Shown: positions 2,238-61,015 of the stretch, in pieces
How positions within the stretch are numbered: the first letter of the stretch is position 1
Layout: every line of letters begins with the position of its first letter
Origin: Escherichia phage FFH2
Sequence record: KJ190158
DNA length: 64,000 bases
Reading direction: 5' to 3' (one strand)
Notes under the pieces: generated by a model
The model's database searches: none
What the model saw: only the letters and a program-made list of their open reading frames with translations
Told to the model about the DNA's origin: nothing
Made by a program: the position numbers and the translations under genes

Positions 2238-3056
2238 TTGAGCAAGAAAGAGTCTAACGACAAATACTACACAAACCCTGAGTATGCAGAATATCTTGTT
2301 GGTAGAGTAAAAGACAAGTATGGGAATTGTGCATACGTTGAGCCTTCTGCTGGAAGGGGTTCTTTTTCAAAACTATTTTCAGAGATACTGTCGTACGATC
2401 TAGTACCAGATCCTGAATTTGAAGGACCAACACCGTGCATTCAGGCAAACTTCTTGGAGGTGCATCCCAAGGCAGATGTCTTCATAGGTAACCCACCATT
2501 TGGCAAGAATTCATCTTTAGCTTGCAAATTCTTTAACCATTGTGCATCGTTGCTAGATCTTGGCGGGGCTATAGCCTTCATCTTGCCACGGACATTTGAA
2601 AAAATATTTTTTGCAAACAAACTGGACATGTCTATGCACCTTGTCTACAGCGAAAGGTGCCCTAAGAACTCGTTTTTACTTAATGGCAAACCTTATGACG
2701 TGCCATGTGTTTTCCAAATTTGGGAGAAAAAGGCGTGCAATAGGGATCCTGTAGAGATTGGAGAGAATAGGTTATTTTCTTTTAGCACACCAGATGACTA
2801 CGACTTCTGTGTAAGACGTGTTGGGTATAATGCTGGAAAAGTATTGGGTGATGATGACCCAAAATCTAAAGAATCTACATATTTCATAAAATCTTTAGTT
2901 GACGGTGTTGACAGAGTGTTTGCTGAATGCTATTCTTCTTTTCAAGAAGAAGCAGGTAAGACTGCTGGAATGAAGAGTATAGGCAAGAAAGAACTACAAT
3001 ACATTTTGGAGACCCGGTATGATCAAAAGTATAGACTTGACCAAAGAACTTACTGA
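2238..3056 (+). CDS. DNA N6-adenine methyltransferase, gamma-class
   Basis: Motifs YYTNPEY, VEPSAGRGSF, IGNPPFG; TTG 2238 after GGAGG; table start 2208 lies inside terminator hairpin. Confidence 0.7.
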   Translation: MSKKESNDKYYTNPEYAEYLVGRVKDKYGNCAYVEPSAGRGSFSKLFSEILSYDLVPDPEFEGPTPCIQANFLEVHPKADVFIGNPPFGKNSSLACKFFNHCASLLDLGGAIAFILPRTFEKIFFANKLDMSMHLVYSERCPKNSFLLNGKPYDVPCVFQIWEKKACNRDPVEIGENRLFSFSTPDDYDFCVRRVGYNAGKVLGDDDPKSKESTYFIKSLVDGVDRVFAECYSSFQEEAGKTAGMKSIGKKELQYILETRYDQKYRLDQRTY

Positions 3057-3477
3057 TGCAAAAGCTTTTGGTGAGACAGCAGTACAAAGGGGGCAGGCGA
3101 TGGGACTGGCACTACCTTTCGTCTTAAAAGAGCACTTTACAGATTTTCAACTTATCAAGGGTGATAAGGGAATGCTTATCCTGGAGCATAAGTTGAGTAA
3201 GAAACGCTATAAAGTTGTTTTTAATTCTAAAGCTCCAACAAAACTGGGATTCAGAACTTACAATCTTAACCCATCCTACACTAAGGGTGTTGGAAGGGTA
3301 GAACAACAGCATTTCAGTGCCAGAGCTTCTTTAGCCCCTTTGATGCTAAATTTCTCAGGGGTGGCTTTAGGATACCTTGATAAGAAAAGAGTTCTTCATG
3401 TCCGTTTCACAGACTTTGTAACGCTCTTAGCTAACAACGAGGTTGATGAAAAGGGACGTGTAAAAACAAACTTCTAA
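3019..3477 (+). CDS. hypothetical protein
   Basis: ATG with GGAG upstream; no recognised domain. Confidence 0.45.
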   Translation: MIKSIDLTKELTDAKAFGETAVQRGQAMGLALPFVLKEHFTDFQLIKGDKGMLILEHKLSKKRYKVVFNSKAPTKLGFRTYNLNPSYTKGVGRVEQQHFSARASLAPLMLNFSGVALGYLDKKRVLHVRFTDFVTLLANNEVDEKGRVKTNF

Positions 3478-3504
3478 TAACGCATAGTATGATTGGAGAC
3501 CGAA

Positions 3505-3696
3505 ATGACACTAAAGTTAACAATTCCAGACAGCTTTTCAGAAAACTTTATCCCAGAAATGATGAGTAAGATGCGATCATTGCTTGATCAGATTGAGGAG
3601 GCTGTTTGGGAAGACGATGCTGTAGTGGCTAACGAGCTGGTAGATAAGTGTAAAAGTATTATTGATGCAGTTGAAGAATACCACGGAGGTTTTTGA
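3505..3696 (+). CDS. hypothetical small acidic protein
   Basis: ATG 3505 preceded by ggagac; table TTG 3493 less likely. Confidence 0.4.
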   Translation: MTLKLTIPDSFSENFIPEMMSKMRSLLDQIEEAVWEDDAVVANELVDKCKSIIDAVEEYHGGF

Positions 3697-4310
3697 TGGA
3701 TATTATTGTTCTTAACGCCCCACCCAGCAGTGGTAAGGATCACATTGCAGATCTCTTGTTGGAAGCTATTCCTAACTCACACCACCGCGAGGTTAAGGAG
3801 ATGCTCTTTAGTGTGGCAATTAAGGCAGCTGGTGTAACTCCTCAACTCTGGAATGCACTTTATGACCGCCACTACAAAGAAGAGCCTTGCCCTTTCTTAA
3901 TGATAGACGGCAAGCATGTTTCTCCGCGAGAATGGATGATCCATTGTAGTGAAAATCTGATTAAACCTATCTTTGGTGAAGATGCTTTCGGTAAAGCCGC
4001 AGTCGCATCTTTGAAGAAAGATTTCCCTAAAGGTAAAGGGGTTGTTGTTTACTCCGATGGTGGATTCAAAGAGGAGCTGGCATGCCTTAGCGAGTACGCA
4101 TACAGCACAGGTGGAGATCTGTTGTTGTTCCGTATTCACCGTGTCGGATATGACTGGGGAAATGATTCCAGAACCTATCTAAGTCTGGAAAAGAACGGAA
4201 TAAAAGGAATTGAGTTTGATGTTGTAAACCCTGAAGGTGCACCTTGGGAATGTGCATCGGAGATTGTGTGCAAGTATATTGATGCTAAAGAGGCCCAAGA
4301 AGAATGTTAA
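3696..4310 (+). CDS. P-loop kinase, putative deoxynucleoside monophosphate kinase
   Basis: N-terminal LNAPPSSGKDHIADL P-loop like T4 dNMP kinase; ATG 3696 after GGAGG. Confidence 0.5.
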   Translation: MDIIVLNAPPSSGKDHIADLLLEAIPNSHHREVKEMLFSVAIKAAGVTPQLWNALYDRHYKEEPCPFLMIDGKHVSPREWMIHCSENLIKPIFGEDAFGKAAVASLKKDFPKGKGVVVYSDGGFKEELACLSEYAYSTGGDLLLFRIHRVGYDWGNDSRTYLSLEKNGIKGIEFDVVNPEGAPWECASEIVCKYIDAKEAQEEC

Positions 4311-4897
4311 TCGGAATTGATGTAGATTTGACACTGGTAGATTCAGGAACAGCATGGTGGGAGTGGTTGGAGCGTTTGTATGGTCCAGCCAGTAAGACAG
4401 TCGCTAAACCTTCTAATGGACTGATGTATTACGATCTGTCAAAGTATTGGCCTGATCGCCCCAAAGAAAACATCATAGGGCCTTTTGATTTCTGGAGTGA
4501 CCCATTCCTCTACGACTTTCTTAAGCCTGAAGAGGGGGCTATTGAGGTTATGAAAGATTTGGTGGCTCGTGGTCACAAGCTTGCATTTATCTCGGTATGC
4601 AAGAAAGGTCACCTTGCATCTAAATCAAGGTTCTTAAAGCGTTGGACCAGTGATTTTATGGATCTGGACGATCACACCCAGGGTCACGGCTTCTACGCCA
4701 CACATTTCAAAGGAAATGTGGCTGTAGATGTTATAATTGACGACAGGCATGAATACCTTAACCAATTCGCTTCACGACCTGAAGTTATTAAAATCCTAAA
4801 AGATACGCCTTATGAGCAATTCGAGGAGTTAAAGGTCAGTGTTGACTATACCGCTAATAGTTGGTATAAAATAGGAAAGTTTTTAGAAGGTATTTGA
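4304..4897 (+). CDS. HAD-family 5'(3')-deoxyribonucleotidase-like
   Basis: N-terminal GIDVDLTLVD DxD motif typical of HAD nucleotidases. Confidence 0.55.
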   Translation: MLIGIDVDLTLVDSGTAWWEWLERLYGPASKTVAKPSNGLMYYDLSKYWPDRPKENIIGPFDFWSDPFLYDFLKPEEGAIEVMKDLVARGHKLAFISVCKKGHLASKSRFLKRWTSDFMDLDDHTQGHGFYATHFKGNVAVDVIIDDRHEYLNQFASRPEVIKILKDTPYEQFEELKVSVDYTANSWYKIGKFLEGI

Positions 4898-4898
4898 A

Positions 4899-5099
4899 AT
4901 GGGCAGATGTTCTAAAGGTGGCGATCCTGTAGTCAGATACGGTGACTGGCTGGAGGTATATGATCTGGGGGGTAAGCTAGTGTATGCCTCCAGGATCACC
5001 CAAGATATGTGCTCTGATATGTTTAACAGATACCTTGCATTTAAGGCCAATATAAACCCAGACGAAATTTCCAAAATTAAAACAAGGAGAGCTAAATAA
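4899..5099 (+). CDS. hypothetical protein
   Basis: ORF only. Confidence 0.4.
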   Translation: MGRCSKGGDPVVRYGDWLEVYDLGGKLVYASRITQDMCSDMFNRYLAFKANINPDEISKIKTRRAK

Positions 5100-6082
5100 T
5101 GCTAAAACTGTGCACTGCAAAGATCATTGCTGACAGCATTTCCGAGAAAGGTAAGCGTATCACCACTTTTGAACTAGAGTATCCTCGAATTATTCACTCA
5201 GAGCTTATGACGCACCGAGTATTCAGCCGAAACGCCATGTCTTCCCGTGCAGTGCCTGTCGGCAAGATGCTGCAGCAGATTGTGGAGAATCCGGCAATGC
5301 CAGTTCGCTTCGGTGTAAATAAGCGAGGGATGGAAGATGGTGGGGAACACGATCAAAAGATCCGTGTAGAGTACACTGACATGGAGCTAACCCCTGAAGA
5401 GTTTTGGAAAGAAGCTGCAAAAAACGCCGCTTGGCATGCAGAGAAGTTCGCCCTTGCTGGTTACCATAAACAAGTATGTAACCGCTTAGTGGAGCCGTTT
5501 CAGCGCATGAAAACAGTTGTAACAAGCACAGAGTGGAATAATTTTTTCCATCTCCGTTGCTGGCACGATGCGGATCCTACGATTCAGATGTTGGCTAATT
5601 GTATGTGGGAAGCTCTTGTGAATAGCACTCCTGAAATCCTTAAACCAGGTCAATGGCACACTCCATATGTAGAGCACGTTTATTTGGACGGAGAGTTTAA
5701 CTACGCTGTACGTGACACAGAAGGAAAGCTCTGCATTCTTGATACTAAAGAAGCTCTGTCTATTAGTGCTAGTTGCTGTGCACAAGTATCTTATCGAAAT
5801 ATTGACAGCACGTTTGAAAAGGCAGACAGTGTGGCTAAAAAATTGATTGGTGGGGATCGTATTCATGCAAGCCCTTACGAACACCAGGCAACACCTATGG
5901 ATCATGATAACGCAATGGAACGTTTAAACTACTACCTATCTTCATGTGAAATCACACAAGACATTAGTACTTGGCAGGAAGGTGTAACCCATCAAGACCG
6001 TGATGGTAAATTCTGGTCTGCCAACTTTTGTGGGTGGGTTCAGCACAGACAACTGCTTAATAACCACTTCGTGAAAGGTTAA
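5099..6082 (+). CDS. thyX: Flavin-dependent thymidylate synthase ThyX-like
   Basis: THRVFSRNAMSSRA matches ThyX RHRxxSxNxxSxR signature; RBS aaggaga. Confidence 0.6.
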   Translation: MLKLCTAKIIADSISEKGKRITTFELEYPRIIHSELMTHRVFSRNAMSSRAVPVGKMLQQIVENPAMPVRFGVNKRGMEDGGEHDQKIRVEYTDMELTPEEFWKEAAKNAAWHAEKFALAGYHKQVCNRLVEPFQRMKTVVTSTEWNNFFHLRCWHDADPTIQMLANCMWEALVNSTPEILKPGQWHTPYVEHVYLDGEFNYAVRDTEGKLCILDTKEALSISASCCAQVSYRNIDSTFEKADSVAKKLIGGDRIHASPYEHQATPMDHDNAMERLNYYLSSCEITQDISTWQEGVTHQDRDGKFWSANFCGWVQHRQLLNNHFVKG

Positions 6083-6111
6083 TCCTATCACAGCGATAGG
6101 TAACTTTTGTG

Positions 6112-6140
6112 TTGACTAATAGTATCAGATAATCTATAAT
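6112..6140 (+). promoter_or_regulatory. sigma70-type promoter TTGACT-N17-TATAAT
   Basis: Near-consensus -35 and -10 hexamers with 17-bp spacer, upstream of ATG 6181. Confidence 0.6.
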
Positions 6141-6180
6141 AATGGCTCACTTTGTTGGTGAGCCAGAAATGGAGACAGAT

Positions 6181-6642
6181 ATGAGTAATGTTATGATTCC
6201 TAAAAAGACATTTATTTCAGTTACTTTAGATTTCCTAGCTACCGTCCCTGGGTTTAACGTTCGCACACGAAACGGTCTCCGAGCTGCACTCTTCGCCGTA
6301 GGGTTTGATTTAAAAAATATTGATGTTCTTCGTGGAAAAAACGTTAGATGCAAAAATAAGCCAACCCATTATCGAAAGGCAGATGTATTTGCTGGTGTCA
6401 TGCGTGCAGACTTTAGATACCCACAAATGTATAACGGTGTAGATATTTTAGATGTAGATAAAGCACCTGGTGAGGCAATGCTTGTTCAAGATCTTCCGTA
6501 TGATATCCCTGTAGAGGATCGTGTTAATGTAAGAAAGTATACAAAACAATCTGAAAAGGCTGAAGATATTCATATTGTTGATGAACCTTTCAATTTTGAA
6601 GATCTGCATCGCCTAGAAAAATTATTCGGTATTGAAAGCTAA
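6181..6642 (+). CDS. hypothetical protein
   Basis: ATG 6181 with ggagaca RBS downstream of promoter; earlier ATGs lie upstream of predicted transcript start. Confidence 0.5.
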   Translation: MSNVMIPKKTFISVTLDFLATVPGFNVRTRNGLRAALFAVGFDLKNIDVLRGKNVRCKNKPTHYRKADVFAGVMRADFRYPQMYNGVDILDVDKAPGEAMLVQDLPYDIPVEDRVNVRKYTKQSEKAEDIHIVDEPFNFEDLHRLEKLFGIES

Positions 6643-6652
6643 GGTGGTGAAG

Positions 6653-6883
6653 ATGAGTCATAACTCCAAGTGGAAGGATCTTGGTTTTGCAAGTCGGGCA
6701 GAATATGTTGGCTGGCTTTGGTTCAACGGCCTGACAAACGATATTAAAATGTATGATGATGTTTATTATGACGAGTATACAGGTAAAATTATAAATATCT
6801 CTGTAGAAGAGGATACCTTTGTCCAGCAAGATACTGATACCTGCCTTGATAAATACGTTAATGAAGCGGAGGAAGCAAATTGA
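6653..6883 (+). CDS. hypothetical protein
   Basis: ATG 6653 after aaggtgg RBS. Confidence 0.45.
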   Translation: MSHNSKWKDLGFASRAEYVGWLWFNGLTNDIKMYDDVYYDEYTGKIINISVEEDTFVQQDTDTCLDKYVNEAEEAN

Positions 6884-9195
6884 TCACCAAGGTAATTAAA
6901 AGCAACGGATGTGAAGTGGCATTCGATCCAGAACGTTTAAATAAGGCAGCTATTTTCGGTGACGACGGTAACGGCAATTGGTCACACATTGCACTGGATG
7001 CATACAAACGACTGTATGATGGATGTACAACCAAAGAAGTTAACCAAGCTATCATAGACTCCTGTGTTAGCCGTAAAGACGAAGCACATTCCCGTATGGC
7101 TGGTCGTGTTCTTATTGGTCAGATTTATAAAGAGGCTTTTGGAGGGTTTACAAAGATCCCTTCCTTACCATCATTCTACAATACCATGGTTGAGAAAGGG
7201 TATTGGGAGGATATGGGCTATAGCTTTACCGAGCTAAACACTTTAGACGCTGTTATTGACCACAGTAAAGATCTCGGTTATGGCTATGCAGTCCTTAAAC
7301 AGTTTCGCGACAAATACGGGATCAAGGATACTCTTAAAGACACCTTGTTTGAATCTCCCCAGATGATGTTTATGGGGATAGCAATGGCTGTCATGAAGAA
7401 TATGCCGAAAGAACGTCGTATCAACGATGTTGTAAAATTATACACTTATCTGTCCGACTTAAAGATCAATGCCCCGACACCGTACTTAAACGGGCTGCGC
7501 ACAGGTAAGACAGGGTATGCATCTTGTTGTGTAATAAAAGCTGATGATACAGCAAAATCTATTGGTGTGGCACGTGAAGTTGCGTACACAATGACGGTTA
7601 ACCAAGCAGGTATCGGCTACTATTTATCATCAAGATCTGCAGGCGATGGTGTTCGTGGTAACACTATTAAACACATGGGTAAGATTCCATATTATCGAGG
7701 TATTGATGCTGGGGTTAAGGAGAACAGACAACAATCACGTGGCGGTTCTGCAACAGTATCATTCCTTGCACTAGACCCGCAGATTGATGAGCTAATCCGT
7801 TTGAGAAACCCTATGACTGTTGCTTCAAAAAGAATCAACACCATGGACTACTCTATAGGTATTAATAGGTCGTTTATCAACCGTGTGGCTAAGAATTTAG
7901 ATTGGATGCTTGTTTCTTATAAGCACGCGCCTCAACTGCATGAAGGTATCTTCACCATGTCTATGGAGGAGTTTGATGCAGAGGTTGATCGTATCGCTAA
8001 AGATGACAGTATTCCTAAAACATGGATCCGAGCTAGAGATCTTGCTGTTGAACTGCTCACGCAGCGTATTGAGGTTGGAAGGCTGTTCGTATACTGGACA
8101 GACGAGATGAATAGACATACACCTTTTAAAGATGTGATCTATTCAAGTAACCTGTGTGCAGAAATAGCCCTCCCGACAAAAGGCTATTCAGATATGCGTA
8201 ATATCTTCAAGCACGATGTTGATGATGGCGAAGTTGCATTGTGCTTCCTGTCATCACTTGTAGCTGGAAGGGTTACCCCAGAGGAGTATGAGGATGTTGC
8301 ATATTACACGGTGCTTATGATTGACAATGTTATGGAAATCATGACATATCCGTATGAAAATATGGAGAGCACTGTTAAAAAACGCAGATCCATCGGAGTT
8401 GGCCTTACCAATGTTGCACATTTTATTGCCAGCCACAAGGTTACTTACGGATCTCCTGAAAGTAAACAGCTTGTTCACGATCTTGCAGAACTTCACAGCT
8501 ACAGCTTGCATAAGGCAAGTTTACGGTTGGCAAAAGAGCGTGGTGTCTGCGAGTGGATGCATAAAACAAAATATCCAGAAGGTTGGTTACCAATCGACAC
8601 CTATAACAAAGAGGTCGATAGCGTGGTGAAAGATCCTTCTCTTAAACAGGATTGGGAAGGGTTACGTAAAGAAATCATTGAAAATGGTGGGCTACGTAAT
8701 AGCGTTCTTGAAGCATATATGCCTAATGAAAGCTCTTCGCTGGCAACAAACACCACTAATGGGGTTTATCCTGTCCGTGAGCACATTATCTTTAAAAAAT
8801 CGCCACAAGGGCAGGTGCTGTTTATCGTTCCTGACTATGATGAGTTGAAAGAGTATTACACCTCGGCTTGGGACGTTGATACTAACGACATGATCGATAT
8901 GTATGCTGTGATTCAAAAATTCACAGGTCAGGCAATCAGCGCGGATTTATACATAGACTACACCAAGTTGAAAGATGGTAAAATTTCAATGAAGGAGCAG
9001 CTAGGGTATCTTATCCGTGCCACTAAATTCGGGATGAAGACATGGTATTATTTAAACTCCAGGGTTGGTGCTGGTGACTCCTTGGCAGAGGAACTTCATG
9101 CCAAGAAACAGGCTGAAGATGAAACCAGAAAGAACTATCCTTTGATTGCAGATAGTTCAGTTGAAGATCCGTATTGCGAAAGTTGTGCACTATAA
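6880..9195 (+). CDS. nrdA: Ribonucleotide reductase class Ia large subunit
   Basis: 771 aa; N-terminal ATP-cone; NLCAEIALP active-site region; TTG start after GGAGG. Confidence 0.9.
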   Translation: MITKVIKSNGCEVAFDPERLNKAAIFGDDGNGNWSHIALDAYKRLYDGCTTKEVNQAIIDSCVSRKDEAHSRMAGRVLIGQIYKEAFGGFTKIPSLPSFYNTMVEKGYWEDMGYSFTELNTLDAVIDHSKDLGYGYAVLKQFRDKYGIKDTLKDTLFESPQMMFMGIAMAVMKNMPKERRINDVVKLYTYLSDLKINAPTPYLNGLRTGKTGYASCCVIKADDTAKSIGVAREVAYTMTVNQAGIGYYLSSRSAGDGVRGNTIKHMGKIPYYRGIDAGVKENRQQSRGGSATVSFLALDPQIDELIRLRNPMTVASKRINTMDYSIGINRSFINRVAKNLDWMLVSYKHAPQLHEGIFTMSMEEFDAEVDRIAKDDSIPKTWIRARDLAVELLTQRIEVGRLFVYWTDEMNRHTPFKDVIYSSNLCAEIALPTKGYSDMRNIFKHDVDDGEVALCFLSSLVAGRVTPEEYEDVAYYTVLMIDNVMEIMTYPYENMESTVKKRRSIGVGLTNVAHFIASHKVTYGSPESKQLVHDLAELHSYSLHKASLRLAKERGVCEWMHKTKYPEGWLPIDTYNKEVDSVVKDPSLKQDWEGLRKEIIENGGLRNSVLEAYMPNESSSLATNTTNGVYPVREHIIFKKSPQGQVLFIVPDYDELKEYYTSAWDVDTNDMIDMYAVIQKFTGQAISADLYIDYTKLKDGKISMKEQLGYLIRATKFGMKTWYYLNSRVGAGDSLAEELHAKKQAEDETRKNYPLIADSSVEDPYCESCAL

Positions 9196-9202
9196 TTTTA
9201 AA

Positions 9203-9222
9203 GGGGCTTCGGCCCCATTTTA
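9203..9222 (+). terminator. Intrinsic terminator ggggc-ttcg-gcccc plus attttag
   Basis: GC stem-loop and T-run immediately after nrdA stop. Confidence 0.6.
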
Positions 9223-9234
9223 GAGGTTAGAATA

Positions 9235-10323: not shown

Positions 10324-10326
10324 TAT

Positions 10327-17101: not shown

Positions 17102-17635
17102 ATGACTTGTGCTAGAAAACCTGATGAACAACGTAACGCCTACGATGAGTATGTGACACCGGAGTGGTGTGCAGAAGGGCTGTATGACCTTATTCCGTTC
17201 CCAGAAGACTGGACCTACTTAGAGCCTTGCAGGAATAGTGCCTCAGGTGTGTTCTACTCCCGTATGCCGTTAGGATCTGCATGGGGAGAAATCCAAGAAG
17301 GTGTTGACTATCTGAATACAGAATACAACCATGTTGACTGTATTATCACCAACCCACCATACAGCTTGGCTCGTGAGTTTGTAGACAAGGCGTTGAAAGA
17401 TGCTGACGTAGTTATTATGCTTTTACGTCTTAATTTTCTGGAAAGCAAAGCCAGATTTGAATGGTGGCTTGATAATGCACCTACCACTGTGATCACAATA
17501 TCTAAGCGTCCATCATTTCAATCAAATGGTAGAACTGACGGGCAAGCATATGCATATTTTGTATGGGACAAGAAAAACCGTCTAGACTTGCCGCCATTTA
17601 TGTGGTTGGCACCACCAGAGGCAGATTTGAAATGA
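17102..17635 (+). CDS. Phage-type DNA N6-adenine methyltransferase (small Dam-like)
   Basis: YVTPEW, LEPCRNSASG and catalytic ITNPPYS motifs. Confidence 0.65.
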   Translation: MTCARKPDEQRNAYDEYVTPEWCAEGLYDLIPFPEDWTYLEPCRNSASGVFYSRMPLGSAWGEIQEGVDYLNTEYNHVDCIITNPPYSLAREFVDKALKDADVVIMLLRLNFLESKARFEWWLDNAPTTVITISKRPSFQSNGRTDGQAYAYFVWDKKNRLDLPPFMWLAPPEADLK

Positions 17636-18625: not shown

Positions 18626-18859
18626 ATGAAAGTTAAATTTCTTACAGATTTAGGGTACCCTTCCTTGGTTGACTGCATTGGTAAAATTGTGGAAGCAAAA
18701 CGGCTATCTGCAAACGATAATGTTGTCATGGTTAAGGGAAAAGATTTATTAGCTGCAGGTGCAGAGTCTGGCAGGATCTCTCCTGACTATACATATTACT
18801 TATCTTTAAGTAATCTACCAGAACGAGGCGGCAAAGGCCTTGAAGTTGTGGAGGAGTGA
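18626..18859 (+). CDS. Small acidic protein, MKVK-family paralog
   Basis: MKVKFL N-terminus, KGKDLLAAGA core, EVVEE C-terminus shared with 22289-26674 array. Confidence 0.5.
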   Translation: MKVKFLTDLGYPSLVDCIGKIVEAKRLSANDNVVMVKGKDLLAAGAESGRISPDYTYYLSLSNLPERGGKGLEVVEE

Positions 18860-19401
18860 CAGGTATGCTTCTGATTAACTGGGAAGACCTCTATGGGGAC
18901 AAAGACCCTGTTGCGTTTGTTGATCGTAGATGGAGATACACTGAAGAACAACTGGCTGCAAAAAATTTAACTGCGAAACGCAGAAAGATCATCCAGTGCA
19001 AGTACAAATACGCACAATTTGCTGCAAAAGTGTCTCCACAAATCGAGAGTTTTGTACTTAAATTGTATGACGAATACCTCAAGTTCAAATTGGATTTTGT
19101 ACAGGTGTACCGTGCACAGGTACGCCCAGATACCAACATATGTAGATGGAAGGTTGTTTGTGACGGTAAAGATTTGCCGCTCAGCTTGACAATTGAGTGG
19201 CGTTATGGGTATCATGAGTGTGGTCTGTATGATACTTGGGATGTCATTGTAGATCCTGCTAAGTACCTGAACACAGAGGAGCTGGAATATATCAATAAGG
19301 TTATTCTCGATATGTTTTTCAGATACACCCGTGAAAACTCTGAGAAAGAACGGGATGATTTTCTTGACACCATCAGCAACCATCTGCAGTATACAATTTA
19401 A
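18856..19401 (+). CDS. hypothetical protein
   Basis: ORF only. Confidence 0.5.
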   Translation: MTGMLLINWEDLYGDKDPVAFVDRRWRYTEEQLAAKNLTAKRRKIIQCKYKYAQFAAKVSPQIESFVLKLYDEYLKFKLDFVQVYRAQVRPDTNICRWKVVCDGKDLPLSLTIEWRYGYHECGLYDTWDVIVDPAKYLNTEELEYINKVILDMFFRYTRENSEKERDDFLDTISNHLQYTI

Positions 19402-54807: not shown

Positions 54808-55538
54808 ACTGTCTCCTCCTGTGTCTTCTCAGCATTCTTTCTTGCAGCTATTGCATCGTCCCTGTTCTTGAAATACCCAAGGCATTTCCTTTTACCATCT
54901 ACATGAATTCTGGCTACCCATCTTTCATGGGTTTTATCCCAATTCACCCCTGAGCAACCGCTGGTGTTATTATACTGCACGGCTCTTCCACTCTTGTGCG
55001 AAAAACCATTATCTTCGAAGAACTTTCTTGCCCACTCTGCCTCTTCAAAAGTTCTGTACTGGCCTAGCCAGACCCTTTCACCTACAGAGTCTGTGCCTTG
55101 AGCTACCCATGCCCCTCTTTCTTCAGAATAGTGCACCCCGACCCTGCCAGATTTGTTGTTGCTACGAGGTATCTTGCAACTTTTCTTTTTGTTATCTGTA
55201 GGTTCGAGTAGTTGCAAATTATGAATACTGTTGTCAGCCACACCACCTGTTTCCCTTATCTCCTTGATGTGGTCAACCTCATACCCTTCCGGTACAGGAC
55301 CGTTAAACATTTCCCAGATTATAACGTGGGCACCTTTAGTGCAATGCTTTCCTAGACTAACCACAGGCCTGCCATCAGCATCTTGCCCCTTGTCAGCTCT
55401 GGAGCCTGCTGAAGTTTTAACATATCCTACACCGCTGCCTGCCAGAATGTCTATCTTCCAAAAAAGATTTTGACCGTCATACTCCAATATTTCTGACCAC
55501 AAGTGATTAGCTACACAGTGATCTCTGAACTCGTTCAT
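54804..55538 (-). CDS. Free-standing HNH endonuclease with AP2-like DNA-binding repeats
   Basis: YEVDHIKEIRETGGVADNSIHNLQLL HNH; two GV(H/N)..ERG/W..WVA AP2-like repeats. Confidence 0.65.
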   Translation of the reverse strand: MNEFRDHCVANHLWSEILEYDGQNLFWKIDILAGSGVGYVKTSAGSRADKGQDADGRPVVSLGKHCTKGAHVIIWEMFNGPVPEGYEVDHIKEIRETGGVADNSIHNLQLLEPTDNKKKSCKIPRSNNKSGRVGVHYSEERGAWVAQGTDSVGERVWLGQYRTFEEAEWARKFFEDNGFSHKSGRAVQYNNTSGCSGVNWDKTHERWVARIHVDGKRKCLGYFKNRDDAIAARKNAEKTQEETV

Positions 55539-55596
55539 AAAGTGTTCTCCTTAAAGGGGAGGCGGTTGTACTACCCCTCCCACTCTTTGTTAAACA

Positions 55597-57675
55597 TTAA
55601 AAAGGTGTTTCATCATCCTCAAAACCAGGGACCGGATCAGAGGATGGATCATCGTATTGGAGGTCTTCCTGCGTGTCAATAGGCTTGACAGTGGGTGTTA
55701 CAACCTTATCAGCCACAACCTTGCCCATAGGTGTTTCTACAACTGCATGCTCTTGATCCTCAAACATAGCCTGAGGTCTCCAAACAACCTCCCCACCTTC
55801 TCCGTCTGTAAACATTTGCATTTCTTTGTCCCAGTACCAATTACTGGCATCATGGAACTTACCTGTGTGCGGGTCCATAACTAAAGTGTCAGCAATACCT
55901 AAAGTTTTTGCTGGACGGTTCTTAAGACCTACCAGACGGACACGTCCACGAGAACGATCCACCATTTCTTCGGCCTCGACACCTATGACTACCCAACTCA
56001 ACTGTTCAAGCCCAGCCGATCCTCGCAAATTCTCTTTTCGCACAGGATACCAGAAAGGTAACGGGTTACCATCTTTGTCCTTAGGAGGCACAATCTCTGT
56101 ACGTTTGAGGTGAGCGATCACCAAGATAAACACGTTAAACTGCTTACAAAACGCAGCCAGTTGGGTCATAGCCATGTCCAGTTCTTTTCGCTCATCCTTA
56201 ACATTAAGCCCTGAAATTACCATGGACAGGTGATCCAGCACAATATAACGACAATAGTACAGGCAAACCATTTGCTTAAGCTTGGTAATCAACTCGTCCA
56301 CCGGAATAGACCCGAAATGTTTGAACACTTTGATTTTTCCAGCTTTTGCCCATGATTGGTGAATCTCTGCGTGTTCTTGATCAGTTAAAAACTGGCTAGG
56401 ATCTTCAACAAACTCTTTAACATCAAACCCTAACTGGTTTGCATACAAGGAGTTAATTGCTTCCTCTGGATCCTCCTCAAGATGGATCATGCATAGACGA
56501 TCATCCTCTTCATAGTCATCGGCCTTCGGGCATGTCGGGTCCATTAAGTATCTTGCAATACAGTGTTCCAGTTTTTTAGCCACGGTTGTTTTACCGCCGC
56601 CTGATGGACCTGTAAGCATTACGAGTGTCCCTTTGTGCAAGCCTTTTAGCATTTTTTGCAGTTTTGGGAACTCTGCACTGATATCTACCCCGTTGGAAGT
56701 CTTTTTCCGCAAAGACTCGATAGAGAAGTCTTCTAAATCCGACACAGCATCAGGCACATATTTAACAGGGTGCCGGAACATGTTGACAATATCTTCCAGC
56801 TTTTTAGCCTTCAGCATGTCTCGGATATCTTTTACACCGTCAGGGTCATTTACTTCACCAGGGTATTCTACGTGGTAAACGTTATCAGCCATCAAAAATG
56901 CTGCGATATTGTGCGTGGCCTCAACACCTTTAATGACGTGTTTTTGCTTCTCTACCTCGTTAGCTGCATCGTTATCCATTGCCAGCACAACTGTTCCATA
57001 GCTACGGATAAACTTCTCATTGTTTGCAAAAGTATCTACTGCGTTTGCACATCCACAGTTAATTCCAACAAAAGGCAGGCAGGGTTTTCCTGCCAGATCA
57101 CCACCGTTGATAACTGCGTCGATCCCGTCCTGGACCTCTTTAGCCCACTGCTTCACCTTTGCCGGGGCTTTAGCGTTGGTGAGAATCCCTTTTACTTGTA
57201 TCTGATATGCAGCCTGCCATGCTGCAATAACATCACCTTCTCCCTCACAAACGTTAATCTGCTTACGGTTGTTGGAAGATGCACACAGCTTTTGACCAAA
57301 CATCTGGGAGTTGGCCTTTACGATGCCAACAACGGAGAAATGGCCCCTTTGCTCTTTAGGAATAGTCCAGTCACGCTTTTTGAAACCAGACAGATTTCCG
57401 TAGCGGTCGTAATATGGGAAATATGTTGCAGTGACTGTCACACCGTCTTCTTGGGACAATGCTGATCGCACACCAAAATATTGTGCAGCCATCAGACCGA
57501 TATTTTGTTGTGGGACAGGGACAATTTTAGTATTTTCTAAAACAGTCTCTACAGTTTCAACTTCTTTTTCATCACGATAGTCTCGTTTCACACTTCCCCC
57601 ACTTTTATACTTAGTTGCTTTCGGGTTTGGCTCACCGAAACGGTTGTATGCAGATGCCATAAATTTACTTCCCAT
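55597..57675 (-). CDS. Primase-helicase (T7 gp4-like)
   Basis: Walker A LTGPSGGGKTT in C-terminal helicase half; N-terminal primase-like half; start may be ATG 57660. Confidence 0.75.
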   Translation of the reverse strand: MGSKFMASAYNRFGEPNPKATKYKSGGSVKRDYRDEKEVETVETVLENTKIVPVPQQNIGLMAAQYFGVRSALSQEDGVTVTATYFPYYDRYGNLSGFKKRDWTIPKEQRGHFSVVGIVKANSQMFGQKLCASSNNRKQINVCEGEGDVIAAWQAAYQIQVKGILTNAKAPAKVKQWAKEVQDGIDAVINGGDLAGKPCLPFVGINCGCANAVDTFANNEKFIRSYGTVVLAMDNDAANEVEKQKHVIKGVEATHNIAAFLMADNVYHVEYPGEVNDPDGVKDIRDMLKAKKLEDIVNMFRHPVKYVPDAVSDLEDFSIESLRKKTSNGVDISAEFPKLQKMLKGLHKGTLVMLTGPSGGGKTTVAKKLEHCIARYLMDPTCPKADDYEEDDRLCMIHLEEDPEEAINSLYANQLGFDVKEFVEDPSQFLTDQEHAEIHQSWAKAGKIKVFKHFGSIPVDELITKLKQMVCLYYCRYIVLDHLSMVISGLNVKDERKELDMAMTQLAAFCKQFNVFILVIAHLKRTEIVPPKDKDGNPLPFWYPVRKENLRGSAGLEQLSWVVIGVEAEEMVDRSRGRVRLVGLKNRPAKTLGIADTLVMDPHTGKFHDASNWYWDKEMQMFTDGEGGEVVWRPQAMFEDQEHAVVETPMGKVVADKVVTPTVKPIDTQEDLQYDDPSSDPVPGFEDDETPF

Positions 57676-58429
57676 TAATTCTGCTCCTTACTACAGGCTC
57701 GTTTGCTAAGAATACGGCTTTTGCCCAGCCACGTGGTGTGAGGCTTCGGATCATCTTCGTTCTTGCACTCTTTCCACCCAGCTTGGCGTGTTGCATGGAA
57801 TACCCGCTAACCGCGTCAACTATTTGCGGGACAGGTTTTGTGGCCGGGATTATAAATCCATTACCTATCCAGCCGCAAGTTATTTTTGGATAGGCATCAC
57901 GTGGAGCTATAAATTCAGGAAACCAGGGGTTTACATCATCCTCCGGTAAATACCCGCCATAGTCAGAAGGGTGAAAACGGTAATCAGGTTTGCGCCACAG
58001 TGTGGACATAACACCCACAGGATTCTCTACATGCCACGGGCAATCGTAAATCTCTCCCAACTCTTCTGCAACCCGAGCATCCTTTACAGCATTAATCTGG
58101 ATCAGCGGGTCCTTAGCCAGCTTCTTCTTAAAGTGTGCAGCACCTGACACCGCTAAGTGGGTGCACGGAGGAAATGCAAGAACAAAGTCCGGAGCGGGGT
58201 ACATGCAGAAAGTTTCCTGAGGGAACCATGGATCAATCCAATAATCTACATAGTGAATATTTGGATGATCGGTGATCACCTCTGCATAACTGCCGTGGTC
58301 AGCACCTTCTGCATTAAAGCACAGGCACAGGTACCCAGCTTTTGCCCAGTCAATAACTGCACCACCAGACCCGTCAAATAGGCTCCACACAACACCTTTG
58401 TGGTAGTGTTCTTTGTAGATGAATTTCAA
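57665..58429 (-). CDS. DNA cytosine-C5 methyltransferase-like
   Basis: Motif I LFDGSGG, motif IV FPPCT, motif VI HVENPVG; TTG 58429 after ggagac; table GTG 58459 lies in terminator stem. Confidence 0.6.
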   Translation of the reverse strand: MKFIYKEHYHKGVVWSLFDGSGGAVIDWAKAGYLCLCFNAEGADHGSYAEVITDHPNIHYVDYWIDPWFPQETFCMYPAPDFVLAFPPCTHLAVSGAAHFKKKLAKDPLIQINAVKDARVAEELGEIYDCPWHVENPVGVMSTLWRKPDYRFHPSDYGGYLPEDDVNPWFPEFIAPRDAYPKITCGWIGNGFIIPATKPVPQIVDAVSGYSMQHAKLGGKSARTKMIRSLTPRGWAKAVFLANEPVVRSRINGK

Positions 58430-58444
58430 TTTGCTGTCTCCTAA

Positions 58445-58474
58445 TGCAAAAAGCCCCACCCTTTCGGGCAGGGC
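58445..58474 (-). terminator. Intrinsic terminator, identical to 46722-46754 hairpin
   Basis: gccctgcccgaaagggtggggc then tttttg on minus strand. Confidence 0.55.
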
Positions 58475-58480
58475 CTAATG

Positions 58481-58963
58481 TTAAACCCGGATACCTATTG
58501 TATACTCGGTGGATACCAATGTCAAATCTAAATTTAAAATTTCTTGCATCTCATAGTATGCGTCCAGGGTGAGATACATTTCCCCATCCTTTTCTACATA
58601 TTTGTCCAAGTGCTTGAGGCATTTCGGATAACTATCAAGTGCAGCTTTCAGGCACTCAAACTCTGTGCTGTTGATGAACCCTTCCATCTTGGCTACCCGT
58701 TCTGGGGTAACGATAGCACTGTAGTGAGATTTAGCTTCCTGAATGCAATGCGTCCAAGCATCAACCTTCTCTTCGAAAAGCCCGAAGAACTTCTTTTTGG
58801 TGAGCTTCAGATTCTTCAAGTGCTTAAGCACTCGGTTGCCGATTACAGCCACATCACGAAACTTAAGGATCACCTTGTCGATATCCTCGCGGCCTATTTT
58901 CACAAAGCAGGCTTCGCACATTTCAGGGGCTGCGTAACCTACTTTCCACATAAAATCTGACAT
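58481..58963 (-). CDS. hypothetical protein
   Basis: RBS aaggagaagg. Confidence 0.5.
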   Translation of the reverse strand: MSDFMWKVGYAAPEMCEACFVKIGREDIDKVILKFRDVAVIGNRVLKHLKNLKLTKKKFFGLFEEKVDAWTHCIQEAKSHYSAIVTPERVAKMEGFINSTEFECLKAALDSYPKCLKHLDKYVEKDGEMYLTLDAYYEMQEILNLDLTLVSTEYTIGIRV

Positions 58964-58975
58964 ACCGCCTTCTCC

Positions 58976-59371
58976 TTATTCCTTAAAAGCTATGATATCA
59001 TAGGAACTTGCAGATGATTCTGGTGAAGAATGACTCCAGTCCAGGTCATCAGAATAGTCAGCGTACTGTGCGCCACTACGCAGTTTGTATTTTACCCACT
59101 TACCTGGTGCAGGGTTTTCACCACCTTCCCATACTTCCCAGCCTTCTGGCAGGCCGTCCTGAGCGTAGTCATCCACCTCACTAATGATCTTAGGGTTTGG
59201 CACCAAGATCCCCGCAGGCTCTTCCTTCCGGATAAGTGTCCACACAGCGTAGGTGTCTGAGCAGGCGCATGATAGTAAAGTATATCCACTATTCAGAACT
59301 TCTGCAAGCTCTTTTTCAGCATCTTCCAATTTGGTTAAGTGGTATTGGATAATCTTCACACCTGTAATCAT
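58976..59371 (-). CDS. hypothetical acidic protein
   Basis: ORF only. Confidence 0.45.
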   Translation of the reverse strand: MITGVKIIQYHLTKLEDAEKELAEVLNSGYTLLSCACSDTYAVWTLIRKEEPAGILVPNPKIISEVDDYAQDGLPEGWEVWEGGENPAPGKWVKYKLRSGAQYADYSDDLDWSHSSPESSASSYDIIAFKE

Positions 59372-59676
59372 CAGAAACCTCCCACTTCTTCAGCAAATGC
59401 AGCTGCTGTCGTCGCTGCATCCAGATATGACTCTAGTTCACGGGCTGCACGTTTGTAAATTGAGTGGCGCATATCGTTTGGCAGTTGGTGGAAGTCCACC
59501 TCTTCACCGTTGTGGTAAACATGCACATCAGTGATTTGTCTAAATCCATAATAGTCAACATCAGAATCACGGCACTCTGGGTCTGGCAACTGGACAACTG
59601 CCTGAGCTTCCACAGTGAACATATCGTCAAGTTCGAAATCGATTTCAAAAGTGTATGGTTTATAACGTTTCATCAT
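59371..59676 (-). CDS. hypothetical protein
   Basis: RBS aaagagtac. Confidence 0.45.
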   Translation of the reverse strand: MMKRYKPYTFEIDFELDDMFTVEAQAVVQLPDPECRDSDVDYYGFRQITDVHVYHNGEEVDFHQLPNDMRHSIYKRAARELESYLDAATTAAAFAEEVGGF

Positions 59677-59689
59677 TTGATTGTACTCT

Positions 59690-61015
59690 TTATTGATCAG
59701 ACTTATCTTTCGTAATTAAGGTCGGAGTAAGTTTGTAATAGCGGAAGCCACCACCACCTTGCCAGTTTACAGACTTAGAAATACCCCCTTGATCTTCACC
59801 ATCGATCACTTTTTCCAAGCGCGGAATAATATGGGTATGACAATGATCACCTAGCTCGATTGAGATCCAACGTCTTTTCATCTTGTGAGCTACAGCAGCA
59901 GTAGTTCCCGAACCACCGAATGAATCCAATACCAAATCGCCTTCTAGCGTACACATTTCGAAAATCCGCTTCAAAAGAGCTTCTGGTTTTTTCCCATTTT
60001 TGAAACTAACGCCGCCTTCATTTGCTATTCCATTCCAACTAATGTCTGTCCAAACATCAGTTATTAGTTCTGCAGGTTGCATCTCACCGTCAATTTCCAA
60101 AAGTCTATTGGAGTAAAAGACCATTTGCCTACCATTTGCGATATAAAATCCTTCAACATCCTCATTTGGATGTACATAAACCTTATTCCTATCTCTCTTT
60201 GACTTCTCGATAGTTTCTTTTCTCTTTATTTTAGCTCCACCACCAATTGCAACAGATTGAAATACACGTTCTGCATTATCAATTGCGAATTGTGCTAATT
60301 CATCATCGAATGTATCAGGCAGTTTTTTCTTGGCTTCTTTTGCATCTTTATAGCCATTGGCCTTTGCAAACGCATCGGCAATACCGCACCACGTCCAATT
60401 TTTATAATGGTCGTCCGGGTTTAATAAGTATTTGTTATACCCTGTATCATACCCTTTAGGTATATAGATTTTGTTAAGCGGTTTCTGGGTGCGATCTTTT
60501 GCATATACAAGCAAAAAGTTTGCTGTGGAGAAAACTGTAGCTCCTGTTGCCTTAAATCCTGAAGGGGAGTTTGTGGTCATCGATATGGTATTTAACTGAT
60601 TTGCACGACCAAAAATCTCGTCCATCAAAACTTTTAAATACGCCATTTCGCAATCATCTAAGTGAACGAATATTACCCCATCATCACTTAGAAGATTACG
60701 AATTATTTCTAACCTATCCCTCATTAAGCCCAGCCAAATGGAATGCTCCAGGCTATCATCGTAGTGCTCAAAAGCCCTTCCGGTATTGAATGGTGGGTCG
60801 ATGTAAACACACTTCACTTTGCCTGTATACTCTTGCTCTAGCGCCTTCAATGCTAATAAGTTATCTCCAAAAATCAGTTTATTATCAAAAATATCGTTTT
60901 CGGTCACTTTCTGGCTGCGGTAAGACTTGCTCGAATCTTCTAACAAAATGTGCGGCTCTAGCTTTTTGCGCTCGTTTTTACCTATCCAGGTAAGTTCTAA
61001 TTTAGTTTTGCTCAT
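59690..61015 (-). CDS. DNA methyltransferase, beta-class amino-MTase (Type III Mod-like)
   Basis: Catalytic IDPPFNTG precedes AdoMet motif DSFGGSGTT; N-terminal LTWIGK. Confidence 0.7.
   Translation of the reverse strand: MSKTKLELTWIGKNERKKLEPHILLEDSSKSYRSQKVTENDIFDNKLIFGDNLLALKALEQEYTGKVKCVYIDPPFNTGRAFEHYDDSLEHSIWLGLMRDRLEIIRNLLSDDGVIFVHLDDCEMAYLKVLMDEIFGRANQLNTISMTTNSPSGFKATGATVFSTANFLLVYAKDRTQKPLNKIYIPKGYDTGYNKYLLNPDDHYKNWTWCGIADAFAKANGYKDAKEAKKKLPDTFDDELAQFAIDNAERVFQSVAIGGGAKIKRKETIEKSKRDRNKVYVHPNEDVEGFYIANGRQMVFYSNRLLEIDGEMQPAELITDVWTDISWNGIANEGGVSFKNGKKPEALLKRIFEMCTLEGDLVLDSFGGSGTTAAVAHKMKRRWISIELGDHCHTHIIPRLEKVIDGEDQGGISKSVNWQGGGGFRYYKLTPTLITKDKSDQ

What the first reader, a model, noticed from the sequence alone, without database searches (positions are those of the whole stretch)
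2238..61015. Four DNA methyltransferases of different classes in one 64-kb segment
A gamma-class N6A MTase (2238-3056, NPPF), a small phage Dam-like N6A MTase (17102-17635, NPPY), a C5-cytosine MTase-like gene (57665-58429) and a beta-class Type III Mod-like MTase (59690-61015, DPPF then FGGSG). No cognate restriction nuclease is adjacent. This points to broad self-methylation against host restriction systems.
Basis: partly seen in the sequence, partly recalled or inferred. Interest (0 to 1): 0.55.

Follow-up and report, generated by a model that had tools for sequence, protein, structure and literature searches.

The report
Four orphan methyltransferases in rV5-like phage
This stretch comes from a common, well-studied kind of E. 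coli phage whose four DNA-methylating enzymes are already annotated in public records; they mark a few specific short DNA words rather than protecting the phage broadly, and one is a trimmed copy of a host defence gene.

Summary
The four genes exist at the stated coordinates with the stated motifs. The window is an rV5-like Vequintavirus, about 97% identical to BASEL phages whose GenBank records already annotate all four as methyltransferases. M2 (17102-17635) is 100% identical to the Bas51 enzyme shown by nanopore sequencing to methylate GATC and to trigger retrons. Bas51 has 703 GATC and 258 GTAC sites, and the published methylated-adenine counts (1405; 509-511) mean both motifs are about fully methylated. 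GTAC methylation does not need M2. M3 is a compact C5-MTase, 53% identical to the phage K42 Dcm that puts 5mC on CCWGG. M4 is a copy of an E. coli Type III R-M Mod gene (94% nt identity). It lacks Res and the Res-contacting C-terminal domain, is under purifying selection, and is present in only 84 of 115 relatives. M1 is a gamma-class fold and, by elimination, the likely GTAC enzyme. No restriction nuclease is nearby. "Broad" protection is contradicted: Bas51 plates at about 1e-4 on EcoRI and not at all on EcoRV or EcoP1I. Verdict: real, already known, narrow site-specific self-methylation. The host-derived truncated Mod is the only fresh detail.

The parts
2238..3056 (+). M1: gamma-class amino-methyltransferase (272 aa, TTG start), the probable GTm6AC enzyme
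   Evidence: ORF. phrog_5172 at 2.4e-128 and phrog_799 'DNA methyltransferase' at 4.5e-13. Invariant DQFYT, EPSAGxGxF and GNPPFG in 32 homologs. AF2 model pLDDT 92. The fold matches CamA, M.TaqI, M.BseCI and HsdM, and also tRNA TrmN. Annotated 'putative N6 adenine methyltransferase' in Bas54 and Bas51. The GTAC assignment is by elimination only.
17102..17635 (+). M2: small GATC-specific N6-adenine DNA methyltransferase (177 aa), a retron trigger
   Evidence: 100% identical at protein level to Bas51 bas51_0176. The published loss-of-function and escape mutations D69G, D79G and T83P fall on D69, D79 and T83 of this ORF. Nanopore data: 1405 methylated A in GATC in wild type against 35 in T83P. 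Bas51 has 703 GATC sites.
57665..58429 (-). M3: compact Dcm-like C5-cytosine DNA methyltransferase (254 aa)
   Evidence: phrog_757 at 7e-87. Invariant FDGSG, FPPC (Cys89) and ENP (E135). AF2 pLDDT 88.5. Foldseek top hits are the DNMT3A/3B catalytic domain, prob 1.0. 53% identical over the full length to the Bas06 Dcm-like protein, the family shown to make 5mC at CCWGG on Ec86 msDNA.
59690..61015 (-). M4: beta-class Type III Mod methyltransferase lacking the C-terminal Res-contacting domain (441 aa)
   Evidence: PF01555 at 1.7e-41. PADLOC MTase_III PDLC03636 at 4.5e-203, covering only positions 2-444 of 575. 94.3% nt identity to the E. coli mod gene that sits next to a Type III res gene. dN/dS is 0.11 against E. 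coli and 0.06-0.09 among phage alleles.
59679..61011 (.). The 1.33-kb M4 cassette: a presence/absence polymorphism in the genus that coincides with the E. coli-homologous segment (59681-61028)
   Evidence: 84 of 115 Vequintavirus records carry it and about 30 have only the flanks. In MaxTheCat the flanking ORFs are adjacent.
59670..59678 (.). Left copy of a 9-bp microhomology (TCATCATTT) at the cassette boundary, overlapping the start codon of ORF 59371-59676
   Evidence: The two blastn segments overlap by 9 bp in the M4-less phage (TCATCGTTT); sequences are printed.
61012..61020 (.). Right copy of the 9-bp microhomology (TCATCGTTT), overlapping the M4 start codon and RBS
   Evidence: The E. 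coli homology extends 13 nt upstream of the M4 start codon.

Best explanation
The window is part of an rV5-like E. coli myovirus (Vequintavirus) that encodes four stand-alone ('orphan') SAM-dependent DNA methyltransferases among its replication and nucleotide-metabolism genes. During infection they methylate newly made phage DNA at a small set of defined motifs. M2 methylates GATC on both strands; this is shown experimentally for an identical protein. A second enzyme methylates GTAC on both strands. That activity is shown in Bas51, and I assign it to M1 by elimination, which is inference. M4 is a Type III Mod that keeps its dimerisation, catalytic and target-recognition domains but lacks the Res-binding C-terminal domain. 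It most likely hemimethylates the short asymmetric site of the E. coli Type III R-M system it was copied from (inferred). M3 is a Dcm-like C5 enzyme, probably acting at CCWGG or a related site (inferred from a 53% homolog). The result is narrow, motif-by-motif masking against cognate restriction systems: GATC cutters, GTAC cutters or glycosylases, one particular Type III system, and EcoRII-like enzymes. It is not general immunity, and it exposes the phage to methylation-sensing retrons.
For: Identity and annotation. M2: 100% identity, mutated residues match, GATC methylation lost in T83P. Full occupancy: 703 GATC = 1406 A against 1405 reported; 258 GTAC = 516 A against 509/511 reported, unchanged in the M2 mutant. 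M3: invariant catalytic Cys and Glu, DNMT3-like fold, 53% identity to the K42/Bas06 Dcm family with LC-MS evidence for 5mC. M4: the E. coli homolog is a PADLOC Type III MTase next to a Type III REase; 94.3% nt identity with dN/dS 0.11, and 0.06 in the TRD third. The missing part aligns to the EcoP15I Mod CTD, which contacts Res, while dimerisation uses the NTD and MTase domains and Mod2 works alone as a methylase. M1: gamma-class motifs and fold. No nuclease is adjacent. Narrowness: Bas51 EOP data and the BASEL text.
Against: No experiment assigns GTAC to M1 rather than M4. M1's single best structural hit is a tRNA m6A enzyme (TrmN), and some sources label its homologs 'RNA methylase'. The target sites of M3 and M4 are not measured in this phage, and 5mC was not called in the published data. 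No plating experiment has tested any of the four against a cognate restriction system, so protection itself is inferred. GTAC is strongly depleted (obs/exp 0.59) despite being methylated, which suggests methylation alone has not removed selection on that site.
Confidence: 0.8

Rival explanations
1. This is the first reader's view: the four enzymes together give broad self-methylation that shields the phage from host restriction systems in general.
For: There are four MTases with different specificities and no nuclease partner. Two 4-bp motifs are fully methylated.
Against: Bas51 carries all four genes yet is restricted about 10^4-fold by EcoRI and below detection by EcoRV and EcoP1I. [quoted passage not shown] Four short motifs cannot mask unrelated sites.
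Confidence: 0.07
2. The main role of at least M2 (GATC), and perhaps M1 and M3, is not anti-restriction. Instead they manage the phage's own DNA metabolism: keeping fast-replicating DNA fully Dam-methylated to avoid MutHLS cleavage, or using methylation for timing, packaging or gene regulation, as Dam does for phage P1.
For: GATC is not avoided in the genome (obs/exp 0.99) and is methylated to about 100% by the phage enzyme even in a dam+ laboratory host, whose own Dam evidently cannot keep up (35 of 1406 in T83P). The M2 gene is conserved next to ClpP across distant relatives in Klebsiella, Erwinia and Pectobacterium phages. M2 mutants are viable.
Against: The M2 mutants plated normally without the retron, so there is no obvious replication defect in the laboratory. 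No packaging or regulatory GATC cluster was looked for or found here.
Confidence: 0.25
3. M4, not M1, is the GTAC methyltransferase. M1 would then act on RNA or on another DNA site.
For: M1's best fold hit is the tRNA m6A enzyme TrmN, and homologs are sometimes named RNA methylase. M4 is an undoubted DNA adenine MTase. Neither has been tested.
Against: M4 is 94% identical to the Mod gene of a Type III system. By established knowledge such enzymes recognise asymmetric 5-6 bp sites and methylate one strand, whereas GTAC is a 4-bp palindrome methylated on both strands (509 of 516 adenines). The 349 'other' m6A sites left in the M2 mutant are close to the roughly 275 expected for an asymmetric 5-bp site. 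M1's other fold hits are monomeric gamma-class DNA MTases.
Confidence: 0.15
4. M4 is an inactive remnant of a captured host gene, a truncated pseudogene with no function in the phage.
For: It lacks the last ~126 residues of the host protein. An 11-nt deletion creates its stop codon. It is missing from about a quarter of relatives.
Against: There is strong purifying selection both since capture (dN/dS 0.11) and among phage alleles (0.06-0.09). The whole PF01555 domain, both catalytic motifs and the TRD are intact. The missing domain is dispensable for Mod dimerisation and methylation in EcoP15I.
Confidence: 0.08

Closest known systems
Escherichia phage WalterGehring (Bas51) N6-adenine methyltransferase bas51_0176 (Nakamura et al. 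2025, PMC12548924)
   Same: M2 has an identical protein sequence (177/177) and the same genomic position next to ClpP. GATC specificity and retron Asa1/Squ1 triggering were shown experimentally.
   Different: Nothing at the protein level; the window is a different isolate (about 97% nt identity).
Phage K42 / KarlJaspers (Bas06) Dcm-like C5 methyltransferase, the trigger of retron Ec86 (bioRxiv 10.1101/2023.08.16.553469)
   Same: M3 is 53% identical over the full length. The catalytic and binding residues C82, E128, K175 and K176 correspond to C89, E135, K182 and K183. Both are compact, at about 240-250 aa.
   Different: The host phage family differs (Drexlerviridae against Vequintavirinae). 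At 53% identity the target site (CCWGG) may not be the same. M3's activity is untested.
Type III R-M Mod subunits (EcoP15I Mod, PDB 4zcf) and specifically the E. coli chromosomal mod-res pair WP_024226319 / WP_024226320
   Same: M4 has the same NTD, beta-class MTase core (DPPF ... FGGSG) and TRD. It shares 94.3% nt identity with the E. coli gene and matches the same PADLOC Type III MTase model.
   Different: There is no Res gene in the phage. The C-terminal domain that contacts Res in EcoP15I is absent. So M4 is an orphan, Res-blind Mod rather than part of an R-M system.
Capture of a host R-M methylase domain by a virulent phage (Lactococcus phage phi50 and LlaI/pTR2030; B. subtilis phage SPR), reviewed in PMC10286901 and in Murphy et al. 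2013
   Same: A lytic phage acquires part of a host R-M methyltransferase gene and so encodes its own cognate protection. M4 shows the same pattern, with near-identical host DNA and a defined 1.33-kb cassette.
   Different: Here the source is a Type III Mod, and the capture removed the Res-binding domain. The protection has not been demonstrated.
Gamma-class N6-adenine DNA methyltransferases (M.TaqI, CamA, M.BseCI)
   Same: M1 has the same motif order (FYT ... EPxxGxGxF ... NPPF) and the same catalytic-domain fold (Foldseek prob 1.0, TM 0.40-0.47).
   Different: M1 is much smaller (272 aa against 380-580) and has an unrelated short C-terminal region. It is below the Pfam and NCBIfam cutoffs. 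Its specificity is unproven.

Membership tests
Gamma-class N6-adenine DNA methyltransferase (M1) | Motif order: N-terminal FxTP-like motif, then motif I (ExxxGxGxF), then motif IV (NPPY/F) | tested here: met
   KYYTNPEY, then EPSAGRGSF, then GNPPFG. All are invariant or nearly so in 32 homologs.
Gamma-class N6-adenine DNA methyltransferase (M1) | Rossmann-like MTase fold closest to known gamma-class DNA MTases | tested here: met
   AF2 pLDDT 92. Foldseek hits are CamA, M.TaqI, M.BseCI and HsdM at prob 1.0, but the top hit is tRNA TrmN.
Gamma-class N6-adenine DNA methyltransferase (M1) | Curated family score cutoff (Pfam or NCBIfam) | tested here: not met
   Eco57I scores 16 bits against 25.3 and MTS 13 against 23. 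NCBIfam gives no hit.
Gamma-class N6-adenine DNA methyltransferase (M1) | DNA (not RNA) substrate and a defined target site | not testable with these tools
   GTAC is assigned only by elimination.
Bas51-type phage GATC methyltransferase (M2) | Sequence identity with the characterised enzyme, including residues whose mutation abolishes activity | tested here: met
   177/177 identical. D69, D79 and T83 are present.
Dam families: PF02086 (E. coli/T4 Dam, alpha class) and PF05869/TIGR01712 (phage Dam) (M2) | Score above the curated cutoff | tested here: not met
   PF02086 gives no hit. PF05869 scores 19.2 bits against 28.1. TIGR01712 scores 16 against 97. M2 works like Dam (GATC) but is not a member of these families.
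C5-cytosine DNA methyltransferase (M3) | Motif I FxGxG, motif IV PC with catalytic Cys, motif VI ENV-like Glu | tested here: met
   LFDGSGG, FPPC (C89 invariant) and ENP (E135, N136 and P137 invariant) in 32 homologs.
C5-cytosine DNA methyltransferase (M3) | C5-MTase catalytic fold | tested here: met
   AF2 pLDDT 88.5, pTM 0.89. DNMT3A/3B MTase domain at prob 1.0, E 2e-6, TM about 0.55; also 3g7u.
C5-cytosine DNA methyltransferase (M3) | Pfam PF00145 above cutoff | tested here: not met
   M3 has no Pfam hit. A few homologs carry precomputed PF00145 hits.
C5-cytosine DNA methyltransferase (M3) | 5mC formation at a defined site | not testable with these tools
   Shown only for a 53%-identical homolog (K42 Dcm, CCWGG).
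Type III R-M Mod subunit (M4) | Beta-class N6_N4 MTase domain (motif IV DPPF/Y before motif I FxGxG) with a central TRD | tested here: met
   PF01555 at 1.7e-41. PADLOC MTase_III at 4.5e-203. PDB hits are H. pylori Mod 6k0w and EcoP15I Mod 4zcf.
Type III R-M Mod subunit (M4) | C-terminal domain that contacts Res | tested here: not met
   M4 covers only profile positions 2-444 of 575. The missing part aligns beyond EcoP15I residue ~531, and the CTD is 539-644. No CTD-coding DNA is present in the phage.
Type III R-M system (M4 locus) | Adjacent res gene (helicase-nuclease) | tested here: not met
   In the phage the neighbours are small ORFs with no nuclease or helicase hits. In E. coli the res gene follows 22 bp downstream.
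Restriction-modification system (any of the four) | Cognate restriction nuclease in the same locus or genome | tested here: not met
   Neighbour scans are negative. The whole Bas51 genome has only homing endonucleases and EndoVII annotated.

The most novel reading that the evidence does not exclude
M4 is a recent, microhomology-mediated capture of the 5' three-quarters of the mod gene of an E. coli Type III R-M system found in about 0.5% of complete E. coli genomes, many of them bovine or STEC strains. The copy was trimmed so that it keeps dimerisation, catalysis and target recognition but cannot bind Res. It would then be a 'Res-blind' antidote that pre-methylates phage DNA against that one system without feeding the host nuclease. 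It might even poison host Mod2Res1 assembly through mixed dimers. Its presence/absence polymorphism in the genus would mark an ongoing arms race with strains carrying that island.
Probability: 0.4. Interest if true: 0.5.

Novelty: already known. Interest (0 to 1): 0.25.

Why it matters
Vequintaviruses are frequent candidates for phage therapy and biocontrol of pathogenic E. coli. Knowing that their four methylases give only motif-specific masking explains three things. They remain highly restriction-sensitive. Natural isolates differ in host range, since M4 is present in some and absent in others. They are vulnerable to methylation-sensing retrons. The M4 case also gives a clean natural pair, M4-plus and M4-minus phages with the cognate host system identified, for testing how phages domesticate host R-M methylases.

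Tried and rejected
(1) Sequence searches of M1, M2 and M3 against PDB chains gave nothing useful, so fold searches were needed.

(2) I tested whether M1 forms a conserved two-gene module with the ORF that overlaps its 3' end (3019-3477), because bacterial M1 homologs are also followed by a small ORF. The downstream ORFs show only short, weak local matches, so I rejected this.

(3) The precomputed PF26055 hits listed for M1 homologs could not be reproduced with the Pfam copy available, so I did not use them.

(4) I considered labelling the E. coli island as ARMADA II or MANTIS, because it has a MAD1-like HTH and a DrmD-like SNF2 helicase. I rejected both. ARMADA II needs a YprA/DUF1998 helicase and a UvrD-like protein, and MANTIS needs an AAA+ ATPase. 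PADLOC calls the mod-res pair a Type III R-M system.

(5) I recalled that the known GTm6AC systems PabI and HpyAXII might help assign GTAC.

(6) A first gapless codon comparison of M4 with the E. coli gene was wrong because of a one-codon indel. I redid it with a protein-guided alignment.

(7) I could not assign the GTAC activity or the 349 'other' m6A sites to a gene with the available data.

(8) A literature search found no published description of the M4 host-capture event, but coverage of subscription journals is incomplete.

Full report
**Observation.**
- M1: 2238-3056 (+), 272 aa from a TTG start, EPSAGRGSF followed by GNPPFG.
- M2: 17102-17635 (+), 177 aa, ITNPPYS.
- M3: 57665-58429 (-), 254 aa, LFDGSGG, FPPCTH, HVENP.
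- M4: 59690-61015 (-), 441 aa, IDPPF followed by FGGSG.

Only M4 passes a curated Pfam cutoff (PF01555, 1.7e-41). M1 and M2 give sub-threshold hits and M3 gives none. NCBIfam adds nothing above cutoff. PHROGs places M2, M3 and M4 in 'DNA methyltransferase' families. It places M1 in an unannotated family, with a secondary hit to the same MTase PHROG as M2.

**What the window is.** It is an rV5-like Escherichia myovirus (Vequintavirus), about 97% identical over long stretches to more than 100 GenBank phage records. In the BASEL collection records all four genes are already annotated: 'putative N6 adenine methyltransferase' three times and 'Dcm-like C5 cytosine methyltransferase' once. The fully annotated genome of Bas51 (WalterGehring) has exactly these four MTases and no restriction enzyme. 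The window's proteins are 97.8% (M1), 100% (M2), 99.2% (M3) and 98.0% (M4) identical to those of Bas51.

**M2.** Nakamura et al. 2025 (PMC12548924) found that Bas51 mutants escaping retrons Asa1 and Squ1 carry mutations in 'an adenine methyltransferase'. The rebuilt mutations were D69G, D79G and T83P. Native nanopore sequencing showed GATC methylation that nearly vanished in T83P, and the protein was toxic when expressed alone. Residues 69, 79 and 83 of M2 are D, D and T, the T being that of ITNPPY. M4 has C at position 69, from my reading of the translation. So the characterised enzyme is the M2 ortholog, and here it is an identical protein. It works like Dam but reaches no Dam-family cutoff.

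**Occupancy and a second activity.** The paper's source data list methylated adenines as follows.

| Phage | GATC | GTAC | other |
|---|---|---|---|
| Bas51 wild type | 1405 | 509 | 576 |
| Bas51 T83P | 35 | 511 | 349 |

I counted 703 GATC and 258 GTAC sites in the 140,659-bp Bas51 genome, which is 1406 and 516 adenines. Both palindromes are therefore methylated on both strands at essentially every site. GTAC methylation is independent of M2. By established knowledge E. coli K-12 has no GTAC methylase, so a second phage N6A enzyme is active.

The host's own Dam evidently cannot methylate replicating phage DNA, since only 35 of 1406 adenines were methylated in the mutant. In Bas51, GATC is not avoided (obs/exp 0.99), whereas GTAC is the second most depleted 4-bp palindrome (0.59, z = -8.7) and CCWGG is at 0.70.

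**M3.** More than 3000 homologs exist, and about 1500 phage records carry one, many of them T1-like Drexlerviridae. An alignment of 32 homologs has invariant residues at the C5-MTase positions: FDGSG, FPPC with Cys89, and Glu135-Asn-Pro. The AlphaFold model is confident (pLDDT 88.5, pTM 0.89). Its best PDB matches are the DNMT3A/3B catalytic domains (prob 1.0, TM about 0.55) and a prophage DNA MTase, 3g7u.

A preprint on retron Ec86 showed that the 236-aa Dcm of phage K42 (a KarlJaspers/Bas06 relative) puts 5mC on msDNA. Triggering depends on a CCWGG site there, and the catalytic and binding residues are C82, E128, K175 and K176. The Bas06 protein is 53% identical to M3 over its full length (E 4e-86), and those residues correspond to M3 C89, E135, K182 and K183. 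M3 is thus a real C5-MTase family member. Its exact site in this phage is unmeasured.

**M1.** Its family has an invariant amino-MTase signature: DQFYT, EPSAGxGxF, GNPPFG. The model is confident (pLDDT 92). It matches the catalytic domains of gamma-class DNA adenine MTases (CamA, M.TaqI, M.BseCI, HsdM), although the single top hit is the tRNA enzyme TrmN. Bacterial homologs are followed by small ORFs, as in the phage, but these are not convincingly related to one another. So there is no evidence for a hidden partner nuclease.

**M4.** This is the only part I did not find described elsewhere.
- *Host counterpart.* A 567-aa E. coli chromosomal protein is 95% identical to M4, and the gene is found in 29 of 5426 complete E. 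coli genomes. In E. coli it is followed 22 bp downstream by a 912-aa helicase-nuclease. PADLOC scores the pair as Type III MTase (E 6e-284, full length) and Type III REase (E 9e-191). M4 matches only positions 2-444 of 575 of the same MTase model.
- *Host island.* The pair lies in an island at tRNA-Sec with a MAD1-like HTH, a DrmD-like SNF2 helicase, AbiD and an AIPR protein.
- *Boundaries.* Homology between phage and E. coli runs from 13 nt upstream of the M4 start codon to 9 nt past its stop (window 61028-59681). An 11-nt deletion creates the stop, and no DNA for the C-terminal 126 residues is present in the phage.
- *What is missing.* In the EcoP15I structure, Mod dimerises through its NTD and MTase domains, and Mod2 is a stand-alone methylase. 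The CTD (539-644) of one protomer makes the extensive contacts with Res. The part missing from M4 aligns to that CTD.
- *Selection.* The gene is under purifying selection: dN/dS is 0.11 against E. coli (0.06 in the TRD-containing third, only 4 substitutions) and 0.06-0.09 among phage alleles. It is probably active, with the host system's specificity.
- *Accessory status.* 84 of 115 Vequintavirus records carry it, and about 30 have only the flanks. In MaxTheCat the flanking ORFs are adjacent. The 1.33-kb indel coincides with the E. coli-like segment and is bounded by a 9-bp microhomology over two start-codon regions. That fits a discrete capture event.

**Assignment of GTAC.** By established knowledge Type III Mods recognise asymmetric 5-6 bp sites and methylate one strand, and M4 is nearly identical to one. 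So the palindromic, double-strand GTAC methylation is more likely the work of M1. The 349 'other' m6A sites in the M2 mutant are close to the roughly 275 expected for an asymmetric 5-bp site. This is inference by elimination; I give the opposite assignment 0.15.

**Interpretation.** Self-methylation is real, and an anti-restriction role is well supported for M4 and plausible for the others. It is narrow, however.
- BASEL reports that Vequintavirinae are 'exceptionally susceptible' to R-M systems.
- Its raw data for Bas51 give these EOP values: EcoRI 1e-4 to 4e-4; EcoRV and EcoP1I, no plaques; EcoCFT_II 1e-5 to 0.06; EcoKI 0.1-0.6.
- None of these systems targets GATC, GTAC or CCWGG. M4's cognate system was also not obviously in the panel: two M4-carrying phages, Bas50 and Bas52, give no plaques on the Type III system EcoCFT_II. 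So the data refute breadth but not site-specific protection.
- Methylation also carries costs. M2 triggers two retrons, and the M3 family triggers Ec86.
- A non-defence role for M2, such as avoiding MutHLS or regulating phage functions, remains a reasonable rival.

**Comparison with known systems and novelty.** Phage orphan MTases, including ones captured from host R-M systems (Lactococcus phage phi50/LlaI, B. subtilis phage SPR), are textbook. Relatives in Certrevirus carry the same adenine and cytosine pair. The finding as stated is therefore already known and largely already tested. The modestly new element is that M4 is a recent, CTD-less, Res-blind copy of an identifiable E. coli Type III Mod, segregating as a presence/absence cassette. 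That sets up a simple plating experiment.

**Verdict.** Interest: 0.25.

Noticed in passing
whole window; Bas51 genome (L003-L005): GTAC is strongly under-represented (obs/exp 0.65 in the window and 0.59 in Bas51, z = -8.7), although essentially every GTAC is methylated in Bas51. GATC is not depleted (1.08 and 0.99), and CCWGG is at 0.70 in Bas51. Avoidance and methylation of the same site coexist.
   Followed up: partly
window 18856-19401 (+): This ORF (phrog_13467, unknown function) is the ortholog of the BASEL 'putative glycosidase' bas51_0171. A premature stop in that gene lets Bas51 escape retron Asa1 (PMC12548924). It lies 1.2 kb downstream of M2, and its biochemical role is unknown.
   Followed up: no
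window 59371-59676 (-): This 101-aa ORF lies directly downstream of M4 and has a weak hit to phrog_1573 'DNA methyltransferase' (E 1.5e-5). It is retained in phages that lack M4, and its start codon lies in the 9-bp microhomology that bounds the M4 cassette.
   Followed up: partly
GenBank records MG0656xx ('Campylobacter phage C2, C5, C12, A138, A142 ...'): About 20 records named Campylobacter phage are about 97% identical to this E. coli Vequintavirus and are unannotated. They are probably mislabelled or contaminant assemblies. Genuine Campylobacter CP81-type phages carry only a 38-40% M4 homolog.
   Followed up: no
BASEL S1 Data: Bas51 plates partly on the Type III system EcoCFT_II (EOP up to 0.06) but not at all on EcoP1I. 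Bas50 and Bas52 show the reverse. All three carry M4, so the cause is unexplained.
   Followed up: no
L013 / L017 (E. coli island at tRNA-Sec): The host Type III R-M system related to M4 sits in a mobile defence island with a MAD1-like HTH, a DrmD-like SNF2 helicase, AbiD, an AIPR/AbiU-like protein, IS66 and integrase remnants. Whether the SNF2 and HTH genes work together with the mod-res pair is unknown.
   Followed up: partly
window 1209-2192 (+): The DnaQ-like exonuclease gene just upstream of M1 ends in a zinc-ribbon region with sub-threshold hits to several Zn-ribbon families, including Lar (restriction alleviation; 17.9 bits against a cutoff of 28.6). This is probably generic zinc-ribbon similarity.
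   Followed up: no
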